DNA of 64,000 bases, from NCBI GenBank assembly GCA_000004985.1, contig GG738885.1. The stretch is one strand, 5' to 3'. Shown in pieces: positions 6,009 through 54,716 of this stretch. Each line of letters begins with the position of its first letter. Within the stretch, counting starts at the first letter, position 1. This DNA comes from Naegleria gruberi. Lineage: Eukaryota. The notes under the pieces were generated by a model that saw nothing but the letters and a program-made list of their open reading frames with translations, did no database searches and was not told where the DNA came from. The position numbers and the translations under genes are program-made.

Positions 6009-7469
6009 TTATGGTTGTTGAGTAGTTTTCACAGATTGTACATTTGCAAGCATTTCCTTACAGAGCTCAGAGCTTTCGAATTGTAAATAGAGAGGAAACA
6101 CCATTGTACTAATCACATCCTTCTCCAAAGAATCGAACAAATCTTCCACATATCCTTCTTCCTCTATTCTCTTCTTTGCTGCATTAATTAGCTTTTTACT
6201 GGTATTCACCTCAAACACAGCATTATCCTCTAAAAAGGTATCGAAAATATACGAGGCCTTGACATGATGTTCTGGAATGATAATTTCTGAAGGCGGAATG
6301 AAGATGGTAATATCGCACGATTCATCCACAGCAAGATTTGATCCTGATTTCTTAATCAGATCGGAATTGTAGGTGAATTTCTTACAGGCCTTACATAAAA
6401 TCTTGTACTGAGCTATTTCTTCAATAAATATTGCCAATTCCAAACTGAAAATATTAGAGAGATAGGCTTTAAAGTATCTTCTCATTGTAGAATTTTCCAA
6501 AACTTCCTGTACAGTCAACTTATCTGATCCAACAGAGGCAATACTCACTCTTCCCTCCTCCACTTCTTCCTGCTGGAGAGTTTGTTCGATATTGAGAATG
6601 GATCTGGTTTTTCTAGCAGTTTGGAAAATGAAAAACATGTCAGGGAATAATTTCTTCAAATCATTCAAATATTGATCTGGTGATTGTTCTACTTCTGAAA
6701 CCAAATTGCTCGTCTCTGAACTGGCCTTTCCCAAATTGAAAATAAATTTACCATAATCAGGTCTTTCAGATAAATCCTTATAGAAATAACTAGTTTCGAA
6801 TGAACCATGACTAATAATATGCATTGTAAACAATGAAAACATATCCATATGTCTAATATCTTTCAATGAAGGTAATCTCAATTTCTTATCTTCCTTAAAC
6901 ATGAATTTCAGAATGGTTGGAAGTGCCAATGCATGTCTCACTAAACTTGCCTTTGGAACCATTAATAAACCATGTTTGATAGAGTTTGAGATTTTACAAT
7001 GCAAGAGATTGGTTCCTTTCATTGATTTTACGCACTTTTCATTGTTTTCTTGATGGCAAATCACTGGAACAACGTTCATCATTAAGAAACTGCTCAAATA
7101 ATTACTAATTGATGTGATGACATGTTGACACATGGGACAGCCGAACCATTTAATGACAATGAGGAGTACTCTGTGTTTTTCACTCAATCTGAGAACAGAA
7201 TGTCCACTTGGATGGACAATCATCTCTTCCAAAACATTCAAAATGTCAAAAGTTGCTGAGGCGTTTGACATGACCGTGTCAGCACTCTTGGAAATATCGG
7301 ATGAAGCATCTATTGTATTTCTTCTATTACATGTTTGTTCTCCAGCTAAATCTTGAGACAGGGAAACTTCGTCCTTGCTATGTCTTTTTAAATTTGATTG
7401 GGTGCCAACTGTCAAAAATCTAACGCTATTTGTTTTCTTTGAAGATGAAGCGGAGTTGGTATCACTCAT
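6009..7469 (-). CDS. RGS-domain protein with N-terminal thioredoxin-fold (AhpC/TSA_2-like) CxxC region
   Basis: The C-terminal half has RGS hallmarks (MRRYFKAYLSNIFSLELAIFIEEIAQYK ... ASYIFDTFLEDNAVFEVN). The N-terminal half has WFGCPMCQH, a CxxC motif of the AhpC/TSA_2 / PRXL2 type. Single long ORF. ATG at 7467..7469 (MSDTNSASSSKK). Confidence 0.65.
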   Translation of the reverse strand: MSDTNSASSSKKTNSVRFLTVGTQSNLKRHSKDEVSLSQDLAGEQTCNRRNTIDASSDISKSADTVMSNASATFDILNVLEEMIVHPSGHSVLRLSEKHRVLLIVIKWFGCPMCQHVITSISNYLSSFLMMNVVPVICHQENNEKCVKSMKGTNLLHCKISNSIKHGLLMVPKASLVRHALALPTILKFMFKEDKKLRLPSLKDIRHMDMFSLFTMHIISHGSFETSYFYKDLSERPDYGKFIFNLGKASSETSNLVSEVEQSPDQYLNDLKKLFPDMFFIFQTARKTRSILNIEQTLQQEEVEEGRVSIASVGSDKLTVQEVLENSTMRRYFKAYLSNIFSLELAIFIEEIAQYKILCKACKKFTYNSDLIKKSGSNLAVDESCDITIFIPPSEIIIPEHHVKASYIFDTFLEDNAVFEVNTSKKLINAAKKRIEEEGYVEDLFDSLEKDVISTMVFPLYLQFESSELCKEMLANVQSVKTTQQP

Positions 7470-7959: not shown

Positions 7960-8030
7960 TCGGGTGTGGTATAGTGGTAGCATTCCAGACTGTCACTCTG
8001 GCGACCCGGGTTCAATTCCCGGCACTCGAG
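7960..8030 (+). tRNA. tRNA-Asp (anticodon GTC)
   Basis: TCGGGTG acceptor 5' arm pairs with CACTCGA (one G·T wobble), discriminator G. Anticodon stem CCAGA/TCTGG with loop CTGTCAC. T-arm CCCGG-GTTCAATT-CCGGG variant. A T5 run follows immediately (attaattttt). Confidence 0.85.
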
Positions 8031-10104: not shown

Positions 10105-10140
10105 TTTATTAAGGCAATCATCATTAACAAAGAATAAAAA

Positions 10141-10258
10141 GACTACAGCACCACAGGTTCCCAAGTTGTCTCCAACCTCAGTACTGATGTGGCTCGACGA
10201 TGCTTAACTTCTCAAATCGGACGGGATGAGGTGCATTCATCGTGGTATGGCCGTAGCC
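10141..10258 (-). rRNA. 5S ribosomal RNA gene (dispersed copy)
   Basis: The reverse complement reads GGCTACGGCCATACCACGATGAATGCACCTCATCCCGTCCGATTTGAGAAGTTAAGCATCGTCGAGCCACATCAGTACTGAGGTTGGAGACAACTTGGGAACCTGTGGTGCTGTAGTC. This matches the universal eukaryotic 5S blocks (GCCTACGGCCATACC, CATCCCGTCCGATC, GAAGTTAAGC, TTAGTACT, GGGTGCTGTAG). It is followed on the minus strand by TTTTTATT, a pol III terminator (plus 10133..10140). Confidence 0.9.
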
Positions 10259-10406: not shown

Positions 10407-13400
10407 TTATTCTTTCAGTTTCAAAGTAGAGCCAAGATTTTCTTTCAATTCAATTTTTTTGTTCATACTTTCATAACTGTCAGATAGGACAAAACGTGAG
10501 AAGGTATCGTCAATATTCATAATTATGGCACAATACAAATCTGAGAGAACTTCCTTAATTTCCTTATCGTTTTGTTGATTGTTTCTTACAGATTCGAATA
10601 TTTTATGGAAGGATTTCTTGGTATTGTGTGAAATGTTAAGTTCCATTGGAGAATTATTTTCAATAAATGTAGCTTTCCACTCTTCAAAATGTTTACACAA
10701 TTCTGTGGTTGCAGGTGTGTTGCCATTATTGATAGATTCGAATACTGGTGCAAGTTTAGTCCAGAATATTACATTTTCCAACGAATGCTCAGTTTTGGCA
10801 AATTGTTTGAAAATTTCACATAATGTTGGATTTTTAAGAATTTCATTCAGTTGATTATCTTCCTCAAGTATAGACTCCTCTTTCATTTTAGTATGCTTTC
10901 CACTAATTTTAGATTTAACTAATTCATAAATTGAGACTAGAGAAACTAATCCACCAAAACTCATAATTAACATGATATTATACAATAATTCGAAAGCAAT
11001 TTGAGCAGCAGATAAGCCCTGGTTTGAAGCTACAAGAAGTGAAAATCCAAGCCCATAAGTAATAATAAAGAATATAATGCTCGTAAAGAAGAAAATAAAT
11101 TCTTTTCTGAAAGCAAGATTGTCATTCACTATCAAGTAATTTTTGATTGGATTAATCACTAATTTCTTATCTTTTAAGGTCAGTTTGGTACTCAATTGAA
11201 CATATCTTAATTCCATATAAATATCAAAAAAGTGAATTACACAAACTAATAAAGACATGACCAAAACAAATGAAAATAATGAACCAGCCATGATTGATGC
11301 ATATTGACTTGAAGAGATTACTGCTGTTTGTTGTAAGGAAATGAAAATTACATAAAAAGCAATAAAAACACATGCAACAATCAAGTTAGCAATAATGGAG
11401 AAGGTTTTGCTTGAAAATAAAAGCTTAATCCACTTGAATTTCTTCTCATTGAGCACGTCAACTTCCTTCTCATCGAAAATAGCCATAATTTCATATAGAT
11501 ATCTAAATACAATGTATCGTGAGCTTAATATCAAATAGTTTAGAATAGATAAACAATAGAAAGTGGAAGCAATCATTGTAGAAACTTGTCTCACAATCAT
11601 TGAGTTTGGATTTTTTGCTAAACTTAGAGAATTTGCAATAATGTAAGTGAAAACAAGTTCAATTAATAGTGAAATTAACGCAAAGTATGGAATTATTCCT
11701 CTACTCTTGGTTGGTGTTTTCTTACATGTGACAATAACACCCACCAATGCAATTAATGTTAAAAATATTAGGAAACAACCAATAACAATGGATGCAATAA
11801 CACCACCTTCATTAGCTAATGTCACTTTGACGTCAATAAATGATGAAAATGAAGTTGTGTGATTACAATAGCAATTGACAACACTACTATTTTTAGAAAT
11901 TTCAGAAATGCATCCATCGGTAAGCCATTTCTTACTAGTTTCATCAAAAAACTTGCAAGAGACAACAAGTGAGGAATTATTTTGTACGCTTGACAAAATT
12001 TTAGAATCCACATTCAAGGAAAGTATAATAGGATTTGCCAAATTTGAAACTTGTAAGAATTGGCCATTTAAAATATATTTCAATTCAACAACTTTTGCAA
12101 TATTAACTGAAGAACCTTTGGAAACTTTGGAAATAATACTAGCATCAGTCAAATTACTTGTTAGTTCAGTAGCATTCGAATAGAGAGAAGCCAACTTTTC
12201 CATATTGAAATAAGTAATTGAACCAACTGAAACTCCTTCTCTTACCAGATCTGAAGGTGTAGAAATGGTTGTATTTCCGTCATTGAGATATGATGAAGAA
12301 TTGAGGTTTCTAACAACTGAAACAATAAATGAAGGTGTTTCAGTTTTAAAAATACTATCTTTCTCATCACTGGATTTGGAAGAAACGAGAATCAAGGTTT
12401 CAATTACAGAACTTGAAGAGTAATTTGAAGATACAATGACATTGGAATAGGCATTCAAAACTTGACTAATGGTTGTGTCTATAGCATTAGATGATTTCAA
12501 AGTAGATACTTCTAACTGGTTCAATTCAGATGAAATTGTCGAAATCAAATTCGAAACAGTGGAAACAATAGAAGTTGTAACTGATGATTGAGATGAAATG
12601 ACATTCAAAGCAGTAGAAACCTTCAATGTCTGATCAAGATCAGAGGTATTTCTCTGAACTGTTGACAATGCTTGTGTAACCATAGTCAAAACTGAAACAG
12701 CACTAGATGCTTTCGAATAAGTATCAGAATTTGAAGCAATACTAGCAATATCCTTTGTAGAAATCGAACCTAAGAATGACTCTGTCACTACATTTTCGTA
12801 TTTCATCACTTGAATTGTTTCAGCAGTTTTAAATGAATAAGAAATTCCTCCAAATGAAATTCTTAGTACTGCAGTAAAGTTTCCTTCAGAATTCAATGAA
12901 TATGAAACAATCATTGGATTGGCAGTCGATACAATAGTAGGGTTACCAATATTGGTATAAACACCATTGTTCGAAAACAGAACAGTATAAGTTGCACTTG
13001 TCAAATATGATTTGAGATTTGAATGATACTTGACTGCAATTAGCACAGTGGAATCAACAAAAGTGATAGTATTATCAAATTTGATTGAAATATCTGGTGA
13101 GCAATCAGTAGAATTACCAGAAAGTATCCATCCATCATCACAATAAGGAGTTAGTTTTCGAATAGCTAAATTGCCGTTGTCTGAAATATATATTGAGTTA
13201 TCATTTCTATCAACTGCTAGTGAATTAAGTCGGAACGAAAACAATGATGTCTTTCCATCTTTGTATCCTGATACACCAAACGTTCCTGCAATATTTGTTA
13301 TGAAACCAGATGATTTCTTTAACATTCGAATAGAACTTCTTGAATGTGATAAAATCAAATCACCATTTGATAAATAGAAAAAATCAGCAAGAGAAGTCAA

Positions 13401-15125
13401 TGGAGACTGAATAGCAATAACACTATTAGAAGAAGTATCCCAAATAGCACATGTTCCATTACCAACCAAAGTTATCAAGGTTCCATCATTTAAAATCTTA
13501 TTAATGGTACAATTAGAAGGAAAGTAAAATACAATACATCCATCGGTAGGATCAACTGCCAATCTTTCTGCCTTAAATGTTGTAGAATTGAAATACATGG
13601 AAATTGTTTGTGAACTAAGGTCAACCAATCTAATAGTTCCCAAATCAGCAACGTAAATCTTATTTTCATAAATGGCAATATCAGCAATGCTTCCAAATCC
13701 AGCATTGGAAAGAGGACCACCATCTCCATACCCTGAAGCACTGGTTGAGGTTGTTCCTACAACCACCACATAATTTCCAGTTATTTTGTCAATTTTCATA
13801 ATTAAACTTGGAACTGCATAATAAACTTCTCCATTCCATTCATCTATTGCACCAAATAGAACACCCAATGAAGAATTAGCAGCTGGTAAACCAATTGACA
13901 AGGCTGCAAAATCATCACTTCTTCCATCTCCTCCAATAATTGAAGAGTAACCACTTTCAAATTTGTGTAGGAAATATCTCTCAAAATCCAATCCATATAA
14001 TACTCCTGGTTTGGTTCTACTAGCAGCTATCAATGAAGTACCAACATACATAGTTGTAGATTTGACACTTGTTTGATTGTCACTTGAATATCCAATAAAT
14101 ATTTTGGATTTGCAATTACCTGCGATAGTTGTTTTGGTACCGTTAGTCAAATCAAACTTGTATATGTACTTTTGTTCTTCAGCAACTATTAATTTTCCAT
14201 TCAAATCAAAAAATGCAGAACTAGCTTTGATGACTGGAAGTAGAGTTTGGCTTGTGGAACCACCAGATAAATCATATTTGAAGATACTAGTCAATGCATT
14301 CACATATAGATTATTGTCTTGTTTGAACATTTTGTCAAAGAAAAATGGTGATGAGATGATTGGAGATAGAATAGTTCTGTTTCTCCAATTCATTAAACTG
14401 ACCTTTCCATTTTGTCCTTCAGAAATATAGAGTAAATCACCATTAACAAGCACATCTTGAGCTTGATATCCACTTCCTCCGTAAATAGTTTCAATGAATC
14501 CACTTGATATGTTAAATTGTCTTACACGGTTATTACCATAATCAGCAATGAATAGAATAGTTTCGTCTGGAGAAAGTTCCACTCCTAAAGGATTGTTTAA
14601 TCTAATGCTGTTCAAATCAGATGTACCATCACCAGAAAAATTTGCTGTTCCACATACTCCCACAAGTGTTGAAATGTTTCCATTCTTGATATCCAACTTT
14701 CGAATACATCCATTACCTTGTGCTATATACATGATTGTTTCGTCTTGTGTGAGCACCATCGAGAATGGAGATATTACACTGACAGAAAGTGCAGAACCGT
14801 CCCCAGGGATAGTTTTTCTATAATTACCAGCTACAAGACTAATAATTCCGTTGTTATCTATCTTTCTAATAGCAGCCATGGATGCATCAGCAATATACAT
14901 GGATCCATCTTTTGTTGGTATGATATCCTTGATGTAACTTAGGCATGACATGCTACTCTCGAATCCATCTCCAAATCTCTGTTGAAAAAGTTGTGAGTTT
15001 CCTCCTGCGAAAGTCGAAACTGAATACTTGACGTTCGGTGGTGTTTGTGTGTGAACGGTGGTCACCAACATACAAAGACATGCCAATAATAGAAGGATAT
15101 GACACGCCACTTGAAACACTTTCAT
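10407..15125 (-). CDS. Adhesion-GPCR-like receptor: signal peptide – NHL-repeat beta-propeller – Ser/Thr-rich stalk – GAIN/GPS motif – 7TM – C-terminal RGS domain
   Basis: ATG at 15123..15125 with a signal peptide MKVFQVACHILLLLACLCMLVTTVHTQ. NHL-type repeats (FSGDGTSDLNSIRLNNPLGVELSPDETILFIADYGNNRVRQF). GPS motif CKFFDETSKKWLTDGC-x12-CYCNHTTSFSSF (C..W..GC..CxCxH-T-T-F). Seven hydrophobic segments follow. C-terminal RGS signatures (FKQFAKTEHSLENVIFWTKLAPVFES...IIMNIDDTFSRFVLSDSYE). One uninterrupted 1572-codon ORF. Confidence 0.75.
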   Translation of the reverse strand: MKVFQVACHILLLLACLCMLVTTVHTQTPPNVKYSVSTFAGGNSQLFQQRFGDGFESSMSCLSYIKDIIPTKDGSMYIADASMAAIRKIDNNGIISLVAGNYRKTIPGDGSALSVSVISPFSMVLTQDETIMYIAQGNGCIRKLDIKNGNISTLVGVCGTANFSGDGTSDLNSIRLNNPLGVELSPDETILFIADYGNNRVRQFNISSGFIETIYGGSGYQAQDVLVNGDLLYISEGQNGKVSLMNWRNRTILSPIISSPFFFDKMFKQDNNLYVNALTSIFKYDLSGGSTSQTLLPVIKASSAFFDLNGKLIVAEEQKYIYKFDLTNGTKTTIAGNCKSKIFIGYSSDNQTSVKSTTMYVGTSLIAASRTKPGVLYGLDFERYFLHKFESGYSSIIGGDGRSDDFAALSIGLPAANSSLGVLFGAIDEWNGEVYYAVPSLIMKIDKITGNYVVVVGTTSTSASGYGDGGPLSNAGFGSIADIAIYENKIYVADLGTIRLVDLSSQTISMYFNSTTFKAERLAVDPTDGCIVFYFPSNCTINKILNDGTLITLVGNGTCAIWDTSSNSVIAIQSPLTSLADFFYLSNGDLILSHSRSSIRMLKKSSGFITNIAGTFGVSGYKDGKTSLFSFRLNSLAVDRNDNSIYISDNGNLAIRKLTPYCDDGWILSGNSTDCSPDISIKFDNTITFVDSTVLIAVKYHSNLKSYLTSATYTVLFSNNGVYTNIGNPTIVSTANPMIVSYSLNSEGNFTAVLRISFGGISYSFKTAETIQVMKYENVVTESFLGSISTKDIASIASNSDTYSKASSAVSVLTMVTQALSTVQRNTSDLDQTLKVSTALNVISSQSSVTTSIVSTVSNLISTISSELNQLEVSTLKSSNAIDTTISQVLNAYSNVIVSSNYSSSSVIETLILVSSKSSDEKDSIFKTETPSFIVSVVRNLNSSSYLNDGNTTISTPSDLVREGVSVGSITYFNMEKLASLYSNATELTSNLTDASIISKVSKGSSVNIAKVVELKYILNGQFLQVSNLANPIILSLNVDSKILSSVQNNSSLVVSCKFFDETSKKWLTDGCISEISKNSSVVNCYCNHTTSFSSFIDVKVTLANEGGVIASIVIGCFLIFLTLIALVGVIVTCKKTPTKSRGIIPYFALISLLIELVFTYIIANSLSLAKNPNSMIVRQVSTMIASTFYCLSILNYLILSSRYIVFRYLYEIMAIFDEKEVDVLNEKKFKWIKLLFSSKTFSIIANLIVACVFIAFYVIFISLQQTAVISSSQYASIMAGSLFSFVLVMSLLVCVIHFFDIYMELRYVQLSTKLTLKDKKLVINPIKNYLIVNDNLAFRKEFIFFFTSIIFFIITYGLGFSLLVASNQGLSAAQIAFELLYNIMLIMSFGGLVSLVSIYELVKSKISGKHTKMKEESILEEDNQLNEILKNPTLCEIFKQFAKTEHSLENVIFWTKLAPVFESINNGNTPATTELCKHFEEWKATFIENNSPMELNISHNTKKSFHKIFESVRNNQQNDKEIKEVLSDLYCAIIMNIDDTFSRFVLSDSYESMNKKIELKENLGSTLKLKE

Positions 15126-16894: not shown

Positions 16895-16990
16895 GTTGCT
16901 AGTGAATCTTGATCTCTCTGTTAGATCAAGATTCACTAGATTGCTTGATCTAACAGAGAGACTAGCAATCTAGTGAATCTTGATCTAACA
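16895..16990. repeat. Composite interlocked palindrome: 17-bp unit ctagtgaatcttgatct in direct-inverted-direct arrangement plus nested 10- and 15-bp inverted repeats
   Basis: A1 at 16899..16915 and its perfect reverse complement at 16923..16939 (7-nt spacer). A third direct copy at 16970..16986. The spacer contains ctagattgct...agcaatctag (10-bp inverted repeat) and tgatctaacagagag, which is the reverse complement of ctctctgttagatca in the first hairpin. Confidence 0.7.
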
Positions 16991-22110: not shown

Positions 22111-22183
22111 GCCCGTCTAGCTCAGTCGGTAGAGCGCAAGGCTCTTAACCTTGTGGTCGTGGGTTCGACCCCCACGGTGGGCG
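22111..22183 (+). tRNA. tRNA-Lys (anticodon CTT)
   Basis: GCCCGTCTAGCTCAGTCGGTAGAGCGCAAGGCTCTTAACCTTGTGGTCGTGGGTTCGACCCCCACGGTGGGCG is near-identical in architecture to canonical eukaryotic tRNA-Lys-CUU. Anticodon loop CTCTTAA. Acceptor arms pair 7/7 with two wobbles. A T-rich terminator follows. Confidence 0.9.
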
Positions 22184-27603: not shown

Positions 27604-30469
27604 TTACAATTGATAAGGTAACCAAATTCTGTCTGGAATTGGTGGTTCATGATCTGCCAAGAAGGCAGTTGAGGAAGTTGGATTTAACATCATGAGTTGC
27701 ATGTCAAATTCATTAATTCCAACACCACTCATATTGAATGGACAAAGACAAGGTCCAAATGATCCAGTATTCGAAATATTCATGCTACTTTCAGGTAAAT
27801 TAGAAAGTGGAGCATCTTTAGAGCTGAGAATTCTCTTTCCATCTTTTAGAATTCCCAATCGAATCCAGAAACATCTGTCATATAATTTCAAAAGCCACAA
27901 GTCCCATTTTCCATCATTAGTTGTTTTGAAATAGTCCTTTCCTTCACTTGCTGATCCAATTTTAGAATCCAAATCAAAGTAGACCTTATCGAGCTCTGCA
28001 TGACTCGAAAAGACAATGAAATTCTTATCTTCAGGTACTTCATCCGAATTGGATGTCTTTTGTTGTAAATTCTTGTAAGTGTACTTGTTTCTGATACTTT
28101 CTGGAGCATATTCAATGTTACCAACGAGAGTTTTCTCATCTTCACCCAATCTGGAGTAGGCCTCTCCTGAAACAATATTTTCGACACCTTGTTGTTGAAG
28201 CTCCATGGCCATCTTCTTTCCAAATAGAGCTTCCTTAACAGGTTGATTCAAATAAAAGGCCATATCTGAAAAACCATACTTTTCAATTCTGTCCAACAAT
28301 TTCTGAACTCCCATGCCAAATGGATATTGTAAAACGTGATGAGCTGGAATGCCCTTCTTCTTGTCCTCAACTTTCGTCAATGGAACAAGTTCGAGTGCCT
28401 TGATAACATCCTGAACAAAGTGTTGATGATTGCAAGTTTTCAAATTGTACACATTGGTACCATTCCACAAACTACAAACTTCTGAGAGTTTGGATAAGAG
28501 TGCAGTAATATTCTTCTCTCCTTCCACTTTCTTAAGTGTAATGTAGTGGAAATGAGGATTGAAACGAAGCAGACCTTGAGGAGGTTTTCTAGATGGAATA
28601 ACGAGTGAATTCTCCTTCCATTCTAAAAACCAATTTCCAATCATGATACCAGTTCTCAATAATTTGTACCTATTCGTGTCTTTCATTTCAATCATGAATG
28701 ATTCGCTAAATTCAAAAACTACCAATTGACATTGTAAATAAGCTTCTTCCTTCTTTGAAGATCTACCAAACAATTTTGCCAAATTTGATTTCTTCTCTGG
28801 TTCGCACTCTTCACCATCATTGAGAGCAATGGTTCCAGACTTCTCACCAGTTGGATTATCAAAGAAGAGATAATTGTAACAATCAGGAAGTGCCAAATTC
28901 TCTGACATGAAAATCTTTTCCCTGTGTGAAAAAATTCTTCTATCAATCGGAGCAAGTTTCTTGAAAACATTCGAAACCAAAACTCTTTCCAACTCGCTCA
29001 GCTGCTTAAAATCAATCAAGAGAGGTAAACGTTCTGACAATTGAACACTCACAAAATCAATAGTAATATTTGATGTAGTGGCATGTGTCTGCTCAGAATC
29101 TGGAAACATCTTTTCAATATTATTTGTTTGTTGTGAAGCTGCCTCTGAACTAGAAGTTGCATCAAATTTCACATCAAATAATTTCTTCTTCTTTCCACTA
29201 CTATTCATCTTCTTTTGAATAATTGTATCAAAAGATGAAGGATCTGTCAATAACAAGTAAATATTCTTATATCTTGACTTGTACTTTCCCAATTGTTCAA
29301 TTAATATCAAATCATTATTCAAAATTTGTGGGAAAACTGTTTGTCTAAGTGATTTCTCATCAATTGGTCGAACACAATTATCAAGATCACTATTAACCAG
29401 ACAGGAAACTAGACGATCACGACTCTTCTTTTTTTCTTTACCATTTGATGAAGAGGAGGTGGAAGAGGATGAATTATTCATCATTATATTTTCCATCATG
29501 CTATTACTTCCAATGGAATCGAGTGATGGACGAATCATACTATTCGAATCTGATGATGAAGATGAATTAAGATCTGCTTCCTCTGTTGAATTATTGATCA
29601 TGGGAATGATGCTTCCATTTAGTGCCATTGATTTTCTTGTTGTATATCCAACAGGTTTTGGTGGTCGATAATTGACAGGTGAAACATCACTTGGTGTTGT
29701 GGGCGTAGTTGAATTTGAAGAGAATGGGGATTGATTTCCAAAGGATGTTTGTGGACTGTTGGGTGAATGTCCTTCACTAGCAGAATTTGAATGTTCAACT
29801 GCACTAATAGGATTATTCGAATTTGGACGAATCATTGATGAATCTCTTCTAGTGACTACAATACCAGTTCGATTACCGAATCTACTTGTTTTTTCCAAAT
29901 TTTCTGATGAAGCAGATTTCCTTGTTATTGCTACTGAATCCTTTCTTTGATTACTTGGAGAAATACTTGGAGAAGAAACATTATTCGAAACTGTTGTTCT
30001 CGTTGTTAAAACTCCTCCCATTTCTACATTTTCCAACTTGTCTTGAATTTCCATTAGATTCTTCTGATGAGAAATATGTTTTTGAATTGATGAATAGATT
30101 AGTTCGGCTTCGTCTTGGGAAATAATATTCTCCAAATCTGAAACTTCGAATTGGACAAGAGCAGAGCCATCCCACGATTCTTGTTTTAGAGTTGTTAATG
30201 TTGATTGTGAAAATCTGTAATTTAAAGTTCTTTCCAAGTGTCGAAGAAAGGAAAGAAAATCACCAGTTGACCAACGAGAAATTGGTTTAGATTCATCAAA
30301 TGGAAGATCTTCCGATAATGTATCTTTTGTAAATAATAAGTGTTTGTGCAATGGGTGAAGTGAGGATGACAAATTTTAATGTATAACACACAATTAGTTT
30401 CGAATAGAGATCAATATAAAGTTATTCGAAACTAGAATACAAACCTTCTGAAGAAGCAGAAATAAACAT
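27604..30469 (-). CDS. SAM-domain-containing protein (about 930 aa), function unknown; 5' exon + intron
   Basis: Putative first exon ATG at 30467..30469 (MFISASSE). A GTTTGT...AAAAG intron (about 30335..30444) joins in frame to DTLSEDLPFDESKPISRWSTGDFLSFLRHLERTLNYRF...ALVQFEVSDLENI (SAM-like). There is a long Ser-rich linker. The C-terminal roughly 400 aa is globular with no assignment. Confidence 0.45.
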
Positions 30470-30788
30470 TTTGCAAATTGATTACCTCTGAGTTACACAC
30501 AAAACACAAAAACCTCGATTTTTTTTTAATTCTTCTTCTGTGATGCAACTACATACTCGATTGACACCTGACAGTGAAATTTGAAAATAGGAATCATTTG
30601 CTCAGTCTATCTGACACGCTACAATTAAAAATCCTCTACGCAAAACTCTTCTCCTTCCTTATCAAAGCACCGAAGATGAAATTGGTAGCAAACGAAAGAG
30701 CATTTCTTCTTGACTTGGTTGACTCGACAATTCAGTACAATGTTCGATATTTTCAAATGAAAATGATAACGAACTGGAAAGAATAATT

Positions 30789-31279
30789 GATTAGAATCAG
30801 GGTTCTGCACATGAATATTGAATTTGGAAATAAACCAATATATTATTTGTTTTTGTTTTCAGTCATATACATATCAATTTTCAACTATTAATATAGAACC
30901 CATACTTTTATTTTTGAAAAGTTTTACTTTGCACGCCTCAGCACATTGTGCTAAGGTGATTAGAACCAAGCTAGAACCTGAGGCATTCTATTCAACCAGT
31001 GGTCAGTGTTCTTTTTGTTTAATTAATATTCAATAATCAATATTATTGCTATTACTCTTGTTTGTAGAACGGTATGTTTTTGATTTACATCATAACTTGC
31101 AATTAAACATCCCGGCACGATTCATTCACAAAACATCATCAGGATGTTTTTTTTTCATCAAATTTTTTAAATTTTATTAGTAACGGTAGTTTTGTGTGAT
31201 TCATGGCTCATCAAGTGTCTTTTTCTTATTTCATCGTAACCTCACAATGTGAGGTTTTGTGCAGAACCCTGATTAGAAT
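30789..31279. mobile_element. hAT-like MITE: 475-bp non-autonomous element with 14-bp terminal inverted repeats and 8-bp target-site duplication
   Basis: TSD ATTAGAAT at 30789..30796 and 31272..31279. TIRs cagggttctgcaca (30797..30810) and tgtgcagaaccctg (31258..31271) are perfect reverse complements. The TIRs begin CAGGG, matching the hAT YARNG rule. An 8-bp TSD is typical of hAT. The interior is AT-rich and non-coding, with a subterminal hairpin aacctcacaatgtgaggtt. Confidence 0.65.
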
Positions 31280-31673
31280 GGATCTCGCTTTGGTGTTTGA
31301 TTGGATATTATGATAATCATCACTATTGATTACAAAGAATAGTATAGTTTAGGATAAATATTGTTGAGCGAAAAGAATGAGAAAGATCTCTCTTGGACGT
31401 TTCGTGTAAAATGACTTCGACTAGTATTTATGCATGTTGTGTTGACTATTGTTGAAAGGTTGTATCGCTGGTACAGAGTTTCGAATAAGTGTTTGGAGAA
31501 ATAGGCTAAAATACCGACCCTTCAACTCGTGTCGACACATCTCAAAAAGAATCACTACCATTTACATTATTTAATATCCAATTTGTCAGACCTACAATTT
31601 TGTAAATTATAAAAATGCAGTGTAAAAAAATATTTAAAAATTATTACAAATTTCAATAAAAATTATTTATAAA

Positions 31674-32181
31674 TTAAACAAATGAATTTCGATGATCTTG
31701 ATTCACTTGTTTGTAAGGTTGTTCAGCATCTCTTTTCGGTTCATCCCACATAAATACTAATTTGGAACATTCATTACTTCCAAATTTGGCACCATCTCTA
31801 ATTGCTGCTTCGAATGGATGACTCGTTTGCACCCCAACTTGTTCATTCTTTTCCTGTTCTCTTCGAACTGAGAATTCGAGTGAGTTTTTTTCAGCAAGTT
31901 CGAGGATTCGTTTACATTCGCCTGAACCTTTCTCACCTCCTTCTTGAATTGCTTTGAAATCTTTATAAAATCAAAGATTGGAAAGTGAGAATAATATTTC
32001 AAAAGGAGGAGAACTTACAAGGATGTGAAAAGAAGGCTGAGGAATCGTTTACTTTCGGATTGGTGGGAATGTCATGACGAGGATCGTAATTGGAGCTTGA
32101 TTTGACTGCATAACATCTTCTACTGCTGTAGAGGAAACTATCTTTGAATAATCTACTCAAAAAATTAGAGTTTTTAAGCAT
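31674..32181 (-). CDS. Small two-exon gene encoding a basic N-terminal (presequence-like) protein of about 150 aa, function unknown
   Basis: Exon 1 (ATG at 32179..32181) MLKNSNFLSRLFKDSFLYSSRRCYAVKSSS...FFSHP. A GTAAGT donor and AAAG acceptor (intron about 31943..32015) join in frame to YFKAIQEGGEKGSGECKRILELAEKNSLEFSVRREQEKNEQ...NSFV, ending at 31674. The second exon is absent from the ORF track because it lacks a start codon. Confidence 0.35.
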
Positions 32182-32349
32182 TTCTTTTTTGAATATTTTA
32201 CAAAATAATTTCGTCCAGTTTCTTTTAAAGAAATTTTACAAATTAGGATTGTACATCATCATTTGGGCAATCCATTTATACTATTACATTGAGGTCAATT
32301 GAGATATCTCTTAAGGATTGATCCCATTAATTTTACAGAGATAACAAAA

Positions 32350-33885
32350 ATGATTCAAAAAAAAATGTCACTTCTCAACACATCTCAGTTGAACATTACT
32401 TCACCATGTCATCCTCTATTATTTCAATTAGGAGCCCTTAATTACGAGCCAACCATCACCCCAAACACAACCATCTGTCCCGATTCAATATTTACTCCAA
32501 TCATTTCATCAATTTCGACATTTCTCTGTCTTGTCATGATTTTTTTTAGTATTCCAATGATAATTATCAAAAGAAAGAGTGGACATATTGTGAACCGAAA
32601 TATAATATTAATAGTAGTTGATTTGATATTTAATTCGTATTTTGTTTTGAATACTGGAGTGAGGTATATTGTGGGAAGGAGGAATTTTGGTTGTTTGATT
32701 TATTCGATAACGTTTTTTGTGATTCCTCCTTCGATATTTATGCCAAATATATTGAAATGTTGGAGATTGTTTTGTTTGGATAAGATTAATTCGATGATTT
32801 CGAATACTTTAAACGAAAGTTTGGATCATCAGCTCAATAATAATCAATTGACCAATTCTATAACAAGACAACACACAACAGATCAAATAGCAATCGAAAA
32901 GGCATCCATTCCAACCGAAAGTACAAAACAATTATCACCCAAACAGAAACGATTCATTTCCCTTCTCAGATTTACAACCAGTAATTCCTTCTCAACTGTT
33001 TTTTACATTATCATTATACTATTCCACTTGGTGTTGTGGCTTATTTGTGGAGGAATTGATTTGGCAACACCAGGAAGGAAACTCTTCCTCGCCGATGGAA
33101 AATTATTGGATCCTCAATTTGGTTGCATTTTAGGATTGGGATCAATTGTTGTGGTTGCTGGTCAGTGTGTGGTTTACTTGGTTATTGAGCTGATTGTGTT
33201 GGGGTTGTGCTTTTATTCTGATAGAGATACTTGGAAAATTAAGAAGGAAACTATTATATGTGCTATATTTCAATTGATTAGTTGTGTATTGTTTGCTGTT
33301 TTAGGTAATATTGATATTGTAAAGTATTTAGTGGATAATTTGGTGCCGTATGGAAATGTTTTGGTGGCATATTCATTATTTGCAATATTTGTGTCGGTGG
33401 TTCTTCCAATTTTCTATTCCATTCGAGAAGATCGAAAGAAAATACTCGATTTGGAAAGTAATGTTGCTGGAGATGTTGAACAATTTTTGAAAAATAAGGA
33501 AAATTATGAGAAAATTTTGGATTTTGCAAGGAGAAGTTACTGTCCAGAGAATTTATTATGTTGGAGGGATATTCAGAGGTTTAAGAATTCGTTTCATATG
33601 AATGGGAAAGTGGAAGAAAGTGCAAGAATGGGAATTAACATTGTGGAGAGTTATTTGAAATCATGCTCATTGGCTCAGATTAATTTACCCTCCGATCTGG
33701 CCTTGAAAGTTGGAGAAATTGAAACATTGCTATCGAATTCACCTAATTTAATTAATCAAAATCTGTTCGATTCAATTCAAAGCCATTGCTTGGTAGATAT
33801 TCAATGTGATGTCTATATTCGATTCACAGTTCAATCAAAAGGAACCAAAAAAAATCAAAAAGAAGAAACATCAACCCAAATTTAG
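32350..33885 (+). CDS. 7TM receptor with C-terminal RGS domain (GprK/AtRGS1-type architecture)
   Basis: ATG at 32350 (the track start is TTG). Several hydrophobic helices run through about residue 380. RGS signatures are EKILDFARRSYCPENLLCWRDIQRFK, NIVESYLKSCSLAQINL and DIQCDVYIRFTVQS. Confidence 0.7.
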   Translation: MIQKKMSLLNTSQLNITSPCHPLLFQLGALNYEPTITPNTTICPDSIFTPIISSISTFLCLVMIFFSIPMIIIKRKSGHIVNRNIILIVVDLIFNSYFVLNTGVRYIVGRRNFGCLIYSITFFVIPPSIFMPNILKCWRLFCLDKINSMISNTLNESLDHQLNNNQLTNSITRQHTTDQIAIEKASIPTESTKQLSPKQKRFISLLRFTTSNSFSTVFYIIIILFHLVLWLICGGIDLATPGRKLFLADGKLLDPQFGCILGLGSIVVVAGQCVVYLVIELIVLGLCFYSDRDTWKIKKETIICAIFQLISCVLFAVLGNIDIVKYLVDNLVPYGNVLVAYSLFAIFVSVVLPIFYSIREDRKKILDLESNVAGDVEQFLKNKENYEKILDFARRSYCPENLLCWRDIQRFKNSFHMNGKVEESARMGINIVESYLKSCSLAQINLPSDLALKVGEIETLLSNSPNLINQNLFDSIQSHCLVDIQCDVYIRFTVQSKGTKKNQKEETSTQI

Positions 33886-50121: not shown

Positions 50122-52257
50122 ATGAACATAAAGTGCAAAGTTGGAGATGAAGAACAAGGAAAAAAAATGCTCAACAATCAGCAGGATCATGCCGATGAAG
50201 ATGAGAATTTCAAATCATCATCGTCATCGTCATTATCATCATCTGGAATAAATATGATGGATGATTCTTTGGATAACGAAAATGAAAATAATAATCAACA
50301 ACAACATGATGGAAAGCGTGAGAAAAAGCATCCGATCAATTTTGAATATCAGGCTCATGTCATGATGAAGAATTCTAGAGTGGGACATCCTTATGATTTG
50401 GTTAGTAAGGAACAATTGGAGAATTGTTTGGAGACGATGAAGAAATTACATAAACATCGATACTTGTTGAAGAGTCCCGAGTTGAAGGATTTGTTTGAGG
50501 CTGGCTCAGCCTTGTTTAATCCATTGACGGAAGAGGAAAAGATAGAAAGAAGGAGACAGAGAAGAAAACAAGCAAAGGAAGGTAGAAAGAGTCATGATGA
50601 GACAATTTTAAATAATACAGAAATGAAAAAGAGAAAAATTAATGAAATTTCCATTATTAAAGAACAGTTGGAGGAAAGGAAAGCTTTGGAATGTTCGAAT
50701 TTGGATCAAGCAGAAACATCACTTGTGAAAATGGGTATTGAAACGGATGAAATGAAGAAAAAGAAGAGAAAACACATGATGCCTGATATTGGATTAAAAA
50801 GGATTAAAAAGCAAGATGTACTCAAATTGTCCAATTCTGTGGATGAGGATGATGAGGATGTGACTATTGAATCAATTACTGATGATTCCAACCAGACTGC
50901 ATCCAGCAGTAGTGCTTCTTCATCTCATGTCGACAGCAACTCAATGCAAGATGAAGAAAACAAGGCAACAACGGTTCCAACAATTCTCTTTTCACAAAGA
51001 CAATGCTATATGTGCAAACAAATGTTTGATAAGGTTCATTTCTTTTATCACAAAATGTGTACTCAGTGTGGAGAGTTCAACTATGAAAAGAGAAATGCAA
51101 CTTGTGACTTGTCAGGTCGTGTTGCTCTTGTGACTGGTGGCAGAGTTAAAATTGGTTATGAAAGTAGTTTGAAACTTCTCAGAAATAACATTTCTATGGT
51201 CATTGTAACAACTCGTTTCCCAAAGGATGCTGCTAAAAGATATACAGCTGAACCAGATTTTGATCAATGGAAAGATAAGCTTCAAATTTATGGATTGGAC
51301 ATGAAACACATTCCAAGTGTTTATGCATTTTGTGATTTTTTGAAACAAAAGCTTGATAGATTGGACATTATTATTAACAATGCCTGTCAAACCATTAGAA
51401 GGCCATGTGCATACTATAGACATGTCTGCCTCGATGAAATGACAGTCAGTTTGGAGGATTTGAGCGAGAATGTAAAGAAAATACTACCAACAGACTTTTT
51501 CATGAAACCAGAAATGATAGAACATACAGATTCAGGTATCAAGACTCTCATTTCTCCAACAAGTGATGAACTTATCGAGCATGCATCCAATAATCCAACA
51601 AGTAATCAAATTGTACCATACAGTGTAGATTCTTTGAGGGCTCTCACTGATTCCTGTAATGTTAGTACAAGTGCACTCATTTCTCAAATTCCAATCTTGA
51701 AAGAGGATCAGCTTTATGACAGTAATTTATTCCCACATAAGGTTCTCGATGTAAATAAGAGTCAAGTAGATTTGAGACAAAAGAATTCATGGGTTCAAAA
51801 ATTGGATCAGGTTCCAATTTTCGAATTTTTAGAAGTGCAAACCATCAATGTGACTGCGCCATTCATTATCAACTCTCGTTTGAAACCACTGATGGCCAAA
51901 ATGGTCGATCAAGACAAGTTTATCATTAATGTTAGCAGTATGGAAGGTCAGTTTTATAGAAAAACGAAAAAAACAACCCATCCACACTTGAATATGGCAA
52001 AGAGTTCTTTAAATATGATGACAAGAACAAGTGCCGCCGACTATGCCAAGAGCAGAATCTACATGGTCTCAGTCGACACTGGATGGAACAATGATGAAAA
52101 TCCATTGAATATCAACAATGTTAAGGAGACTTACTTTTGTCCACTGGACGAAATTGATGGCGCTGCAAGAATCATGCATCCAATTTTTACATGCATTAAG
52201 GAGGGAAAGAAAATATTTGGAGTTTTCATGAAGAATTATGATTCATACTATTGGTAA
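50122..52257 (+). CDS. Rossmann-fold SDR-superfamily oxidoreductase with long N-terminal extension containing a CxxC...CxxC zinc-ribbon-like motif
   Basis: Nucleotide-binding LSGRVALVTGGRVKIGYESSLKLL and NNACQ blocks. C-terminal HLNMAKSSLNMMTRTSAADYAKSRIYMVSVDTGW. No canonical YxxxK spacing is evident, so it may be an atypical SDR. N-terminal CYMCKQMFDKVHFFYHKMCTQCGEF. Confidence 0.55.
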   Translation: MNIKCKVGDEEQGKKMLNNQQDHADEDENFKSSSSSSLSSSGINMMDDSLDNENENNNQQQHDGKREKKHPINFEYQAHVMMKNSRVGHPYDLVSKEQLENCLETMKKLHKHRYLLKSPELKDLFEAGSALFNPLTEEEKIERRRQRRKQAKEGRKSHDETILNNTEMKKRKINEISIIKEQLEERKALECSNLDQAETSLVKMGIETDEMKKKKRKHMMPDIGLKRIKKQDVLKLSNSVDEDDEDVTIESITDDSNQTASSSSASSSHVDSNSMQDEENKATTVPTILFSQRQCYMCKQMFDKVHFFYHKMCTQCGEFNYEKRNATCDLSGRVALVTGGRVKIGYESSLKLLRNNISMVIVTTRFPKDAAKRYTAEPDFDQWKDKLQIYGLDMKHIPSVYAFCDFLKQKLDRLDIIINNACQTIRRPCAYYRHVCLDEMTVSLEDLSENVKKILPTDFFMKPEMIEHTDSGIKTLISPTSDELIEHASNNPTSNQIVPYSVDSLRALTDSCNVSTSALISQIPILKEDQLYDSNLFPHKVLDVNKSQVDLRQKNSWVQKLDQVPIFEFLEVQTINVTAPFIINSRLKPLMAKMVDQDKFIINVSSMEGQFYRKTKKTTHPHLNMAKSSLNMMTRTSAADYAKSRIYMVSVDTGWNNDENPLNINNVKETYFCPLDEIDGAARIMHPIFTCIKEGKKIFGVFMKNYDSYYW

Positions 52258-52414
52258 TTTTACAAACAGTCAACAGTAAACAAATTCATTTAATGAAGTT
52301 GGTGAAGTTCGAGTAATTATTGGAACTGCAAATATCACCAAATTAAAATCAAATTAGAAAAAAAAAGCCACAACTCCTGTTAATCACCACCTGTAATCCT
52401 CATCCACCATCATC

Positions 52415-53194
52415 ATGAAGCGAACACTAAATGATTTCTTACAAACCTCAGATAAAAAGAAACAATCAACTCTCAAGAAGATAAAAAGTAATTCCGAAGT
52501 TTCTGGTGCGCCAGTAAAACAAATTTCTTCTTATAAAACGGATTCGGAAATTGGTGGTTTATATATTATTGAGAATATTATTGATGTGGCAGAAGAACGA
52601 AAATTAGTAAAATTCATTGATTCTCAAAAGTGGAACGATGAAATATCGAGAAGGACTCAACATTATGGAGTTTCTTATAATTATGGCGCAAGAGGTGTTA
52701 AGGAAGCTCTGAAAGTGCCACCAGTTCCATCAGAATTTTCAGATTTACTGGAAGAAATTAAGAATAAGGAAGGATTGGATTCTATTCGAAATTTGATGGA
52801 AGGAATTGATTTTAAACAAGTCATAATCAATGAATACAAGGGAGCCAAGCAAGGCATCTCAAAACATGTTGATCATTGTCAAGATTTTGGTCCTCTAATA
52901 TTAATTCTCAGTTTGGGTGATGAATGCGTAATGAAATTCCACAAATTAGAACAAGTGAAAGAAGAAGATTTGAAAAAGAAAAAAGTGAAACGAACAGAAG
53001 TATCACCATCAGAATGTTACGATAGAAGAATGCCCAGAAGATCACTCATTATTCTCTCAGGAGATGCCAGATATCAATATCAACATGAAATTCCCAAAAC
53101 AATGGTCTTTAAAATTGATGGTAAACAATTCTTGAAAAGAAGTGAAAGTTACCGAAGAGTTTCCATCACTTATAGATCCCTAACAACAGATTGA
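52415..53194 (+). CDS. AlkB-family Fe(II)/2-oxoglutarate dioxygenase
   Basis: HVDHCQD (HxD iron ligands), a distal His in QYQHEIP, and the C-terminal RRVSITYRSL (the R-x-S-x-T-x-R 2OG-binding signature of AlkB homologues). Confidence 0.7.
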   Translation: MKRTLNDFLQTSDKKKQSTLKKIKSNSEVSGAPVKQISSYKTDSEIGGLYIIENIIDVAEERKLVKFIDSQKWNDEISRRTQHYGVSYNYGARGVKEALKVPPVPSEFSDLLEEIKNKEGLDSIRNLMEGIDFKQVIINEYKGAKQGISKHVDHCQDFGPLILILSLGDECVMKFHKLEQVKEEDLKKKKVKRTEVSPSECYDRRMPRRSLIILSGDARYQYQHEIPKTMVFKIDGKQFLKRSESYRRVSITYRSLTTD

Positions 53195-53760
53195 AACTAA
53201 TTACAATAGTGCAAATATGATTTTTCACACTGTATACCACAGAGATAATCCAAACTTGTAAAATTGTTCAAATTTCCAAGGAGATTAATAAACAGTAACA
53301 CTATTCAACGATTACCAATAATTCGAGCAGTAATTGGCCCAAACTCCTTATCCCCCGACCAGTACTTTACATACAAGCAGTTGAAGGAGTAACTTCTGAA
53401 CAAATTAAGGCACTTCTAGGAAATGCATCTGGCTCAGCATCTGACAGTTAGTTAATTACCTGTCAATAATTTAATGTTTTGACAGGAGAACAACTTGCCA
53501 TTTTGCAAGCTTACAAAGTCTACAATTTATTGAAGAAAGAATGGTATTTTTTTTTAATTTATTTAATTTTAACATTTTTAATAGTAAACATTAATTTTTA
53601 ATTAAAATTTTCACAAAATAAATAAAATTGACATTTCCAACCCATTAACATTCAATCTTTGCTTAATGCCTCACTGAAACCTGTCCAAAAGAGATAAAAA
53701 ATACTTGACACTTGACAAGTCCAAACATTTTGCCAAGCTACACACATTAAAAAAATACAA

Positions 53761-54716
53761 GATGGTCGTCACTGTATTTCGTCCAATGGAAAAGAAATAT
53801 GCCACAAATGGTTGGCGTGTTCGTCTCATGCTCGAAGAAAAGGGAGTAAAATACGAAACTCGTCTCGTGATTTTAGAACATCGAGAACATTTGAACGAGG
53901 AAATTAGAAAATTAAGTTATAGAGGTTAGTTTAGTTGCTGATGATTTGTTTTTTTTAATATAGTTATGATCTTTGTGTTTCGTTTATTGTTGAATGGATG
54001 AAAATATATTCGAAACTTTGATCGGATAATGTTGGAAATTTTTTTGATCACATGATGATAATGTTCAATCTTGAAAAACAATTTTCTCTCGTGGATGGAT
54101 TGATTGTTGGATTTTCTTCTTCTTCTTTTAAAAAACAATTCTAATAATTTTATTCTAAACTACAACAATAGGCGAATTACCACTCTTTGAAGATTTTGCA
54201 GGAAGTTTAAGAGAAGAAACAGCCATGTTAAATTACATTGAAAAGAACTATCCAGAACCTCAATTAATTCCACCATCCGATGATCGTGCAAATTTTGGAC
54301 GAATCATTTCTCAATTCCATGAAGCCAATGGTCAATTCGCCCAAGTTTGCAAAGATATGATCAATACATTCATTGAATTGGAAGAAAAGAATATCACCTC
54401 TCACAAAAAACTACCAAAAGACATGAAAGATTACAAAACTCTTGTTTCTTATTGGAAACAAAAATTGGAAAGTGAAATGATCATTTGGGAAAATCGTTTA
54501 ACAAATGATTCTCTCTTTTTCAGTGGCACTGATCGTCCTTGCATTGTGGATGTTTCACTTTTCCCTTATTATTATCAAATTGTGAGATATGGATTGAGTG
54601 AATCATCTCTTCCAAAACTTAAAAAGTGGAGAGAGCGCATGGAAGATAGAGATAGTGTTAAGAGAACTAGTCCAGGAACAAGTTGGGTTGTACATCCATT
54701 CCTATTGAAATTTTAA
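53761..54716 (+). CDS. Glutathione S-transferase-like protein; one 247-nt intron
   Basis: Exon 1 ATG at 53761 (MVVTVFRP...GVKYETRLVILEHREHLNEEIRKLSYR). GTTAGT donor at 53925 and AATAG acceptor ending 54171. Exon 2 GELPLFEDFAGSLREETAMLNYIEKNYPEP... has GST N-terminal G-site-like features (PLxED...ES.AIL.Y) followed by a helical C-domain. Confidence 0.6.

What the first reader, a model, noticed from the sequence alone, without database searches (positions are those of the whole stretch)
30789..31279. Intact hAT-type MITE with 8-bp target-site duplication
A 14-bp perfect terminal inverted repeat (cagggttctgcaca / tgtgcagaaccctg) bounds a 475-bp AT-rich non-coding body. It is flanked by a direct 8-bp duplication, ATTAGAAT. 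The TIRs start CAGGG, matching the hAT YARNG rule. Perfect TIRs and intact TSDs imply a recent insertion, so an active hAT transposase may exist elsewhere in this genome. The element sits between the 3' end of a small gene and the 5' exon of the SAM-domain gene.
Basis: seen in the sequence. Interest (0 to 1): 0.5.

Follow-up and report, generated by a model that had tools for sequence, protein, structure and literature searches.

The report
Small hAT-like transposon insertion in Naegleria
A 474-base non-coding stretch between two genes of the amoeba Naegleria gruberi has the end structure of a cut-and-paste "jumping gene" of the hAT type; this is an ordinary kind of element, though Naegleria has few transposons and no paper I could search reports this type there.

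Summary
A perfect 14-bp terminal inverted repeat (CAGGGTTCTGCACA, 30798-30811, and its reverse complement, 31258-31271) bounds a 474-bp element. A perfect 8-bp direct repeat, ATTAGAAT (30790-97 and 31272-79), flanks it. It is the only inverted repeat plus 8-bp duplication in the 64-kb window. Markov simulations gave none in 200 runs at arm lengths of 12 or 14.

The window is Naegleria gruberi NEG-M. The element has no coding capacity, no protein homologues and no Rfam match. It lies in a 1.2-kb spacer, about 320 bp upstream of the inferred start codon of a 914-aa gene and about 395 bp downstream of a small three-exon gene.

Every testable hAT hallmark is met: the 8-bp duplication, short repeats starting CAGGG, and a target that fits nTnnnnAn. 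Repeated internal motifs are only suggestive.

I could not test what makes it a MITE family or recently active. Copy number, an autonomous hAT transposase and an empty site all need the N. gruberi genome, which no tool here exposes. Pattern scans of the metagenome, viral and prokaryotic collections found nothing.

Verdict: a real, structurally intact, hAT-like non-autonomous DNA transposon. "MITE", "recent" and "active partner" remain unproven. Interest is low to moderate.

The parts
30790..30797 (.). Left copy of the 8-bp target-site duplication, ATTAGAAT
   Evidence: (D13). It fits the hAT target pattern nTnnnnAn (T at position 2, A at position 7), the pattern described for Hermes in PMC10368747.
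30798..30811 (+). Left terminal inverted repeat, CAGGGTTCTGCACA
   Evidence: exact, and one of only two matches in the window with up to 2 mismatches allowed. The terminus CAGGG fits the YARNG rule (own knowledge).
30812..31257 (.). 446-bp non-coding body, 29.4% GC
   Evidence: The longest ORF is 72 aa with a TTG start. There is no Pfam match, no homologue for any six-frame piece among 5.8 billion proteins and no Rfam match.
30894..30978 (+). Three internal copies of TAGAACC (30894, 30961, 30972), which repeat the AGAACC core of the TIR. They are candidate subterminal transposase-binding repeats.
   Evidence: AGAACC occurs 5 times in the element against 0.27 expected. Compared with 265 other 474-bp segments of the window, 10 (k=6) and 1 (k=7) are as extreme. 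This is suggestive only.
31127..31261 (.). Three copies of GTTTTGTG/CACAAAAC within 145 bp of the right end (31127 +, 31189 -, 31254 -). The last copy overlaps the inner edge of the right TIR.
   Evidence: these are 3 of the 6 copies in the window. Sixteen of 265 control segments are as extreme at k=8, so the evidence is weak.
31238..31256 (.). Perfect 19-nt palindrome, AACCTCACAATGTGAGGTT, ending one base before the right TIR. A related palindrome, AGCACATTGTGCT, lies at about 30939-30951.
   Evidence: CACAWTGTG occurs twice in the window, both times inside the element.
31258..31271 (-). Right terminal inverted repeat, TGTGCAGAACCCTG on the + strand
31272..31279 (.). Right copy of the 8-bp target-site duplication, ATTAGAAT
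27604..30469 (-). Downstream neighbour: a roughly 914-aa gene. Inferred exon 1 is 30469-30445, the intron runs to 30324, and exon 2 is 30323-27604. The inferred ATG lies 321 bp from the element's left duplication.
   Evidence: The ORF is. The orthologues are N. lovaniensis P0001 and N. fowleri P0002, at 61-62% identity. The splice reconstruction is my inference; that exact model is not in the protein collection.
31674..32181 (-). Upstream neighbour: a small three-exon gene of 126 aa. Its stop codon lies 394 bp from the element's right duplication.
   Evidence: It has canonical GTAAGT and GTGAGA donors and an in-frame CDS of 381 nt. There is no Pfam family. The model is inferred and is not in the collection.

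Best explanation
This is a non-autonomous class II (cut-and-paste) DNA transposon of the hAT type, inserted in an intergenic spacer of Naegleria gruberi.

Proposed mechanism: a transposase encoded elsewhere recognised the 14-bp terminal inverted repeats, and probably short repeated motifs just inside them. It excised the element from a donor site and joined its ends to a target cut with an 8-bp stagger. Repair of the stagger duplicated ATTAGAAT on both sides. The element encodes nothing, so it can move only if such a transposase is supplied in trans.

Shown: the repeats, the duplication, the lack of coding capacity and the position between genes.

Inferred: the hAT identity of the transposase, the role of the internal motifs, and any present-day mobility.
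For: - There are perfect 14-bp repeats and a perfect 8-bp duplication at the stated coordinates.
- The structure is unique in the window and absent from 200 simulations at arm lengths 12 and 14.
- The terminus CAGGG fits the hAT rule YARNG. It shares its first five bases with the Ac repeat and 9 of 12 positions with hobo (own knowledge). The Hermes repeat CAGAGAACAACAACAAG is confirmed in PMC3030943.
- The duplicated target fits the 5'-nTnnnnAn-3' preference and the 8-bp duplication described for Hermes (PMC10368747).
- Size and layout match maize Ds1: about 400 bp, 11-bp repeats, an 8-bp duplication and only a few subterminal hexamers shared with Ac (PMC3260210).
- The TIR core AGAACC recurs three times inside as TAGAACC, and GTTTTGTG occurs three times near the right end. 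The two ends are asymmetric, as in Hermes.
- No ORF, Pfam, protein or RNA-family signal offers another function.
Against: - Only one copy was seen: none elsewhere in the 64-kb window and none in four other loci totalling about 35 kb.
- There are no matches in the metagenome, viral or prokaryotic collections.
- No hAT transposase has been shown in Naegleria. None is in the window.
- The papers I could search list Kolobok and MuDRF for N. gruberi, and CMC-EnSpm and piggyBac for N. lovaniensis, but not hAT (PMC9587614, PMC3164196, PMC6125883).
- Naegleria genomes are poor in transposons: 0.28% in N. gruberi (preprint 10.64898/2026.06.24.734286).
- The internal-motif enrichment is not clearly beyond background.
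- Ends and duplication length alone cannot separate hAT from the P superfamily.
Confidence: 0.75

Rival explanations
1. It is a non-autonomous element of another cut-and-paste superfamily that also makes 8-bp duplications, such as P, an 8-bp Mutator variant, Zisupton or Novosib. A different kind of transposase would then mobilise it.
For: The 8-bp duplication and a CA-starting terminus are not unique to hAT; as I recall, P-superfamily termini are summarised as CANRG, which CAGGG also fits. MuDRF Mutator elements are documented in N. gruberi (PMC3164196). No hAT transposase could be shown in the genome.
Against: MuDRF elements make 9-bp duplications, and a 9-bp parse fails here. The target fits nTnnnnAn, and the terminus resembles Ac, hobo and Hermes (own knowledge). 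The short 14-bp repeat and the Ds1-like size are typical of hAT.
Confidence: 0.12
2. It is a hAT-type insertion but a solitary, old and immobile relic. There is no multi-copy MITE family and no working transposase left in the genome.
For: There is one copy in 64 kb. Naegleria is very poor in transposons. Intact ends only bound divergence to below about 13%. hAT is not listed in the Naegleria repeat surveys I could read.
Against: Nothing direct. All 22 paired positions of the repeats and the duplication are intact, which is easier to explain if the insertion is not ancient.
Confidence: 0.35
3. It is not a mobile element. The inverted repeat and the flanking 8-mer are a coincidence, or part of a host regulatory palindrome in the promoter region of the downstream gene.
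For: ATTAGAAT is a common 8-mer: 9 copies in the window against 7.8 expected. The window holds other perfect inverted repeats without duplications, for example at 16899-16990. By my extrapolation, a genome-wide scan would meet about 0.1 chance cases.
Against: No simulation produced the combination at arm lengths 12 or 14. The combination also satisfies two independent hAT-specific constraints: the terminus rule and the target pattern. The inverted repeats sit exactly at the junction with the direct repeats.
Confidence: 0.04

Closest known systems
Maize Ds1 (non-autonomous member of the Ac/Ds family, hAT superfamily)
   Same: It is about 400-500 bp and non-coding, with short terminal inverted repeats (11 bp in Ds1, 14 bp here) that begin the same way (CAGGG; the Ac terminus is from own knowledge). 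It makes an 8-bp target-site duplication and has only a few short subterminal repeats (PMC3260210).
   Different: There is no sequence similarity beyond the first five bases. The host is a heterolobosean amoeba, not a plant. Ds1 has hundreds of copies and a known autonomous partner (Ac); here the copy number and partner are unknown.
hobo and Hermes (insect hAT elements)
   Same: They make 8-bp duplications with the target preference nTnnnnAn. Their repeats start with CAG and contain ...CTGCA (hobo CAGAGAACTGCA, own knowledge; Hermes CAGAGAACAACAACAAG, PMC3030943). They have asymmetric sets of subterminal repeats bound by the BED domain (PMC10368747).
   Different: Those are about 3-kb autonomous elements that encode the transposase; this element encodes nothing. 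The candidate subterminal motifs here (TAGAACC, GTTTTGTG) differ from the Hermes AAGT/AAGC motifs and are not statistically secure.
DNA transposons reported for Naegleria: Kolobok, MuDRF, and RepeatMasker classes CMC-EnSpm and piggyBac
   Same: They are cut-and-paste elements in the same genus (PMC9587614, PMC3164196, PMC6125883).
   Different: Kolobok and piggyBac duplicate TTAA. MuDRF makes 9-bp duplications. EnSpm has CACTA-type ends and 3-bp duplications (own knowledge). None fits an 8-bp ATTAGAAT duplication with CAGGG ends.

Membership tests
hAT superfamily (as a non-autonomous member) | 8-bp target-site duplication | tested here: met
   ATTAGAAT lies directly outside both repeats. The 9-bp and 10-bp parses give asymmetric ends.
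hAT superfamily (as a non-autonomous member) | Short terminal inverted repeats (about 10-25 bp) beginning 5'-YARNG | tested here: met
   There is a 14-bp perfect repeat starting CAGGG. The rule itself is from own knowledge. The Hermes repeat was checked in PMC3030943.
hAT superfamily (as a non-autonomous member) | Target preference 5'-nTnnnnAn-3' | tested here: met
   ATTAGAAT has T at position 2 and A at position 7 (pattern from PMC10368747). This is a single site in AT-rich DNA, so chance would give about 0.1 and the evidence is weak.
hAT superfamily (as a non-autonomous member) | Short subterminal repeats that bind the transposase | tested here: inconclusive
   TAGAACC occurs three times and GTTTTGTG three times. 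However, 1-16 of 265 control segments show equally extreme k-mer repetition.
hAT superfamily (as a non-autonomous member) | An autonomous element in the same genome with matching ends, encoding a BED / DDE / hAT-dimerisation transposase | not testable with these tools
   No N. gruberi gene positions are on record. No transposase domain is present in the window.
MITE (miniature inverted-repeat transposable element) | Small (under about 800 bp), non-coding, with terminal inverted repeats and a target-site duplication | tested here: met
   It is 474 bp. The longest ORF is 72 aa, with no homologue.
MITE (miniature inverted-repeat transposable element) | Many homogeneous copies in the genome | not testable with these tools
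   There is one copy in 64 kb. There are no matches in 4 other loci or in the metagenome, viral and prokaryotic scans, and none of those holds the N. gruberi genome.
Kolobok / piggyBac | TTAA target-site duplication | tested here: not met
   The flanks are ...GAAT and ATTA..., with no TTAA at either junction. The Kolobok feature is from PMC9587614.
Mutator (MuDRF of N. gruberi) | 9-bp target-site duplication | tested here: not met
   The 9 bases on the left (GATTAGAAT) differ from the 9 on the right (ATTAGAATG). The MuDRF feature is from PMC3164196.
P superfamily | 7-8-bp duplication, CA-starting repeats (typically longer, 31 bp in the P element), and a THAP-domain transposase | tested here: inconclusive
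   The duplication length and CA start are compatible. The repeat length and target pattern favour hAT. The transposase is not testable. The family features are from own knowledge.

The most novel reading that the evidence does not exclude
The element is the trace of a hAT transposon system that was active recently, and may still be, in Naegleria (Heterolobosea, Discoba). None of the papers I could search reports hAT elements or MITEs in this transposon-poor lineage. If an autonomous partner with the same ends exists, it would be a native cut-and-paste tool for Naegleria genetics. It would also add a data point for the antiquity of hAT across eukaryotic supergroups.
Probability: 0.25. Interest if true: 0.4.

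Novelty: new member of a known kind. Interest (0 to 1): 0.2.

Why it matters
The find is modest. It adds a hAT-type element to the short list of transposons known from Naegleria. That matters mainly for repeat annotation of these genomes and for the question of which cut-and-paste superfamilies reach back to early eukaryotes.

A working autonomous partner would be of practical use, because Naegleria lacks good genetic tools.

Locally, the insertion makes up about 40% of the 1.2-kb spacer upstream of a large conserved Naegleria gene, so it could affect that gene's promoter. Nothing here tests that.

The element may already be in Repbase, which I could not consult.

Tried and rejected
**Other copies in the window.** The TIR with up to 2 mismatches and blastn of the whole element at word size 7 found none.

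**Copies in public collections.**
- The TIR-pair pattern with a 431-461-nt gap gave 0 in metagenome, viral and prokaryotic contigs.
- Terminal 20-mers gave 0 in metagenome and viral contigs.
- None of these collections contains the N. gruberi genome, so the zeros say little.

**Copies seen through gene calls.** A query made of all six-frame ORF pieces of the element against 5.8 billion proteins found nothing.

**Access to the N. gruberi genome.** Exact look-ups of window proteins and of N. gruberi paralogues were "not on record". The N. fowleri orthologue was also not on record.

**Empty-site test.**
- The N. lovaniensis orthologous locus (L001) is too diverged (61% protein identity) and not syntenic upstream.
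- An ENA metagenome holds a close strain (L002, 99% identical).
- No contig over the insertion site could be retrieved, either by a homology search with all flanking ORFs or by exact look-ups.

**Alternative functions.** There was no Rfam family in 30400-31700 at E<=1 apart from a chance snoRNA-model hit outside the element. Pfam gave nothing for the internal ORFs. The single-strand fold (z = -4.3) is explained by the repeats and two local palindromes.

**Literature.** Nine searches found no report of hAT elements or MITEs in Naegleria. The N. gruberi genome paper is not held.

**Not run.** I did not search with a remembered hAT consensus. The word-index pre-filter would have been swamped by plant and animal hAT proteins.

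Full report
**What is in the sequence.**
- ATTAGAAT lies at 30790-30797, followed directly by CAGGGTTCTGCACA at 30798-30811.
- The exact reverse complement, TGTGCAGAACCCTG, lies at 31258-31271, followed directly by ATTAGAAT at 31272-31279.
- The element is therefore 474 bp including its repeats, with 446 bp between them.
- The direct repeat can be read as 10 nt (TGATTAGAAT, D13). That happens because the last two bases of the right repeat match the two bases left of the duplication. Only the 8-bp parse leaves symmetrical ends.
- The duplicated 8-mer starts ATT and ends AAT, so the inverted repeat appears to run on for three more bases.

**Is it more than chance?**
- I scanned the window for every perfect inverted repeat with arms 50-3000 bp apart and a perfect 8-bp direct repeat directly outside the arms. 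At arm lengths 10, 12 and 14 the window holds exactly one such structure, this one.
- Two hundred second-order Markov simulations of the window gave 0.025 per window at length 10 and none at 12 or 14.
- Combining the simulated number of 14-nt inverted repeats (4.2 per window) with the simulated chance of a flanking match (about 4e-5) gives roughly 1.6e-4 per window. That is about 0.1 chance cases in a 41-Mb genome. This is my extrapolation.
- The structure also has a hAT-type terminus and a hAT-type target, which makes coincidence unlikely even genome-wide.
- ATTAGAAT alone is unremarkable: 9 sites against 7.8 expected.

**Where the window comes from.** Nine ORF translations are identical to annotated proteins of Naegleria gruberi strain NEG-M on a 362,555-bp scaffold (EFC41442 to EFC41458, with two more). 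The window has 34% GC, is gene-dense and has few introns.

**Gene context.**
- To the left is a long minus-strand ORF (27604-30372). Its orthologues are a 1157-aa N. lovaniensis protein and a 1131-aa N. fowleri protein at 61-62% identity.
- Those orthologues align from their residue 36-37 onward, and the ORF has no ATG near its start. I infer a 25-nt first exon (30469-30445, MFISASSE), a GT...AG intron to 30324, and then the ORF.
- To the right, three minus-strand exons with GTAAGT and GTGAGA donors (32181-32019, 31960-31937, 31867-31674) give an in-frame 126-aa product.
- Neither model is in the protein collection as such, so both are inferences.
- On this reading the element sits in a 1.2-kb spacer between two genes on the same strand.
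- The "SAM domain" label is not confirmed. Pfam finds nothing, and a polyhomeotic SAM structure is matched only at E=1.2.

**What the element does not contain.**
- Its longest ORF is 72 codons from a TTG.
- Pfam finds nothing in it.
- A query built from all six-frame pieces found no protein among 5.8 billion.
- Rfam finds nothing inside it at E<=1.
- Its GC content (31.0%; body 29.4%) matches the flanking spacer (31.7%).
- The 32 ORFs scanned against Pfam (30 of 200 codons or more, plus two short ones at the element) carry no transposase domain.

**What it most likely is.** The ends and the duplication are those of a cut-and-paste transposon, and the details point to the hAT superfamily.
- hAT elements make 8-bp duplications. 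Hermes prefers targets of the form nTnnnnAn (PMC10368747), and ATTAGAAT fits.
- hAT repeats are short and start YARNG (own knowledge), and CAGGG fits. It equals the first five bases of the Ac repeat and matches hobo at 9 of 12 positions (own knowledge). The Hermes repeat was checked in PMC3030943.
- The closest analogue is maize Ds1. It is about 400 bp, with 11-bp repeats, 8-bp duplications and little else in common with Ac except a few subterminal hexamers (PMC3260210).

**Internal motifs.**
- hAT transposases also bind short subterminal repeats that are arranged asymmetrically at the two ends.
- Here the core of the repeat, AGAACC, recurs three times inside as TAGAACC, at 97-176 bp from the left end. 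GTTTTGTG or its complement occurs three times within 145 bp of the right end.
- Against 265 other 474-bp segments of the window, equally extreme k-mer repetition occurs in 10 (k=6), 1 (k=7) and 16 (k=8) segments. I count this as suggestive only.

**Other superfamilies.**
- Kolobok (TTAA duplication; reported in Naegleria, PMC9587614) and MuDRF (9-bp duplication; reported in N. gruberi, PMC3164196) do not fit.
- Neither do piggyBac or EnSpm, the classes listed for N. lovaniensis (PMC6125883).
- The P superfamily cannot be excluded from the ends alone.

**What could not be tested.**
- Whether this is one of many copies (a MITE in the strict sense), whether a matching transposase gene exists, and whether any strain lacks the insertion all need the N. 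gruberi genome or close relatives.
- No N. gruberi gene position is on record in the contig index.
- Scans of the metagenome, viral and prokaryotic collections with the paired repeats or terminal 20-mers found nothing. These collections do not hold this genome, so the zeros carry little weight.
- One useful lead emerged. The ENA metagenome assembly ERZ929261 holds a 3.35-kb contig that is 99.0% identical to window 50755-53543 and 96% identical, with indels, in the adjacent spacer. All coding differences are synonymous. A close N. gruberi-like strain therefore exists in public data.
- I could not retrieve a contig from that strain over the insertion site.
- The claim of a recent insertion rests on 22 intact paired positions. 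That excludes pair divergence above about 13% at the 5% level and nothing tighter.

**Verdict.**
- The interpretation as a hAT-type non-autonomous transposon is the best supported, at about 0.75.
- The words "MITE", "recent" and "active partner" are unproven.
- Naegleria genomes are poor in transposons: 0.28% in N. gruberi according to a 2026 preprint, and 2.2% interspersed repeats in N. lovaniensis. I found no paper reporting hAT there, so this is probably a new member of a well-known kind, unless Repbase already lists it.
- It would interest transposon annotators and people seeking genetic tools for Naegleria, and few others.

Noticed in passing
window 16899-16990: In the spacer between two minus-strand ORFs there are three interlocking perfect inverted repeats: 27-nt arms at 16919-45 and 16964-90, 18-nt arms at 16913-30 and 16944-61, and 17-nt arms at 16899-915 and 16923-39. 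There is also a perfect 17-nt direct repeat, CTAGTGAATCTTGATCT. The arrangement could form alternative hairpins. No target-site duplication was seen.
   Followed up: partly
window 30957-30968 vs 30788-30799: Inside the element, TGATTAGAACCA matches the left junction TGATTAGAATCA (flank plus the first two bases of the repeat) at 11 of 12 positions (D9). It may be chance (my rough estimate is p about 0.05-0.1), or a hint that the element favours targets resembling its own TAGAAC motif.
   Followed up: no
window 31674-32181 (minus strand): A probable small three-exon gene of 126 aa with canonical splice donors and a basic N-terminus. It has no Pfam family, and this model is not in the protein collection.
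   Followed up: partly
L002 (ENA ERZ929261, contig k127_155465) vs window 50755-54067: A metagenome contig from a close N. gruberi-like strain. It is 99.0% identical across two genes, with every coding difference synonymous, and 96% identical with several indels in the spacer. It is useful for polymorphism tests of anything in this window.
   Followed up: partly
window 7960-8030, 10140-10258, 22111-22183: Dispersed small RNA genes lie among the protein genes: tRNA-Asp (GTC), a 5S rRNA on the minus strand (101.5 bits) and tRNA-Lys (CTT).
   Followed up: no
window 6009-7469, 10407-15125, 32299-33885: Three separate genes in one 64-kb window end in an RGS domain. One also has GPS and NHL motifs, and one follows a multi-pass membrane region. 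N. gruberi paralogues at 30-37% identity lie on another scaffold. This suggests a large receptor-RGS family in Naegleria.
   Followed up: no
window 30395-30434 (intron of the downstream gene): A perfect 12-nt inverted repeat, TAGTTTCGAATA / TATTCGAAACTA, lies inside the inferred first intron. One arm recurs at 31477-31488, on the far side of the element (I22, I23, D11).
   Followed up: no
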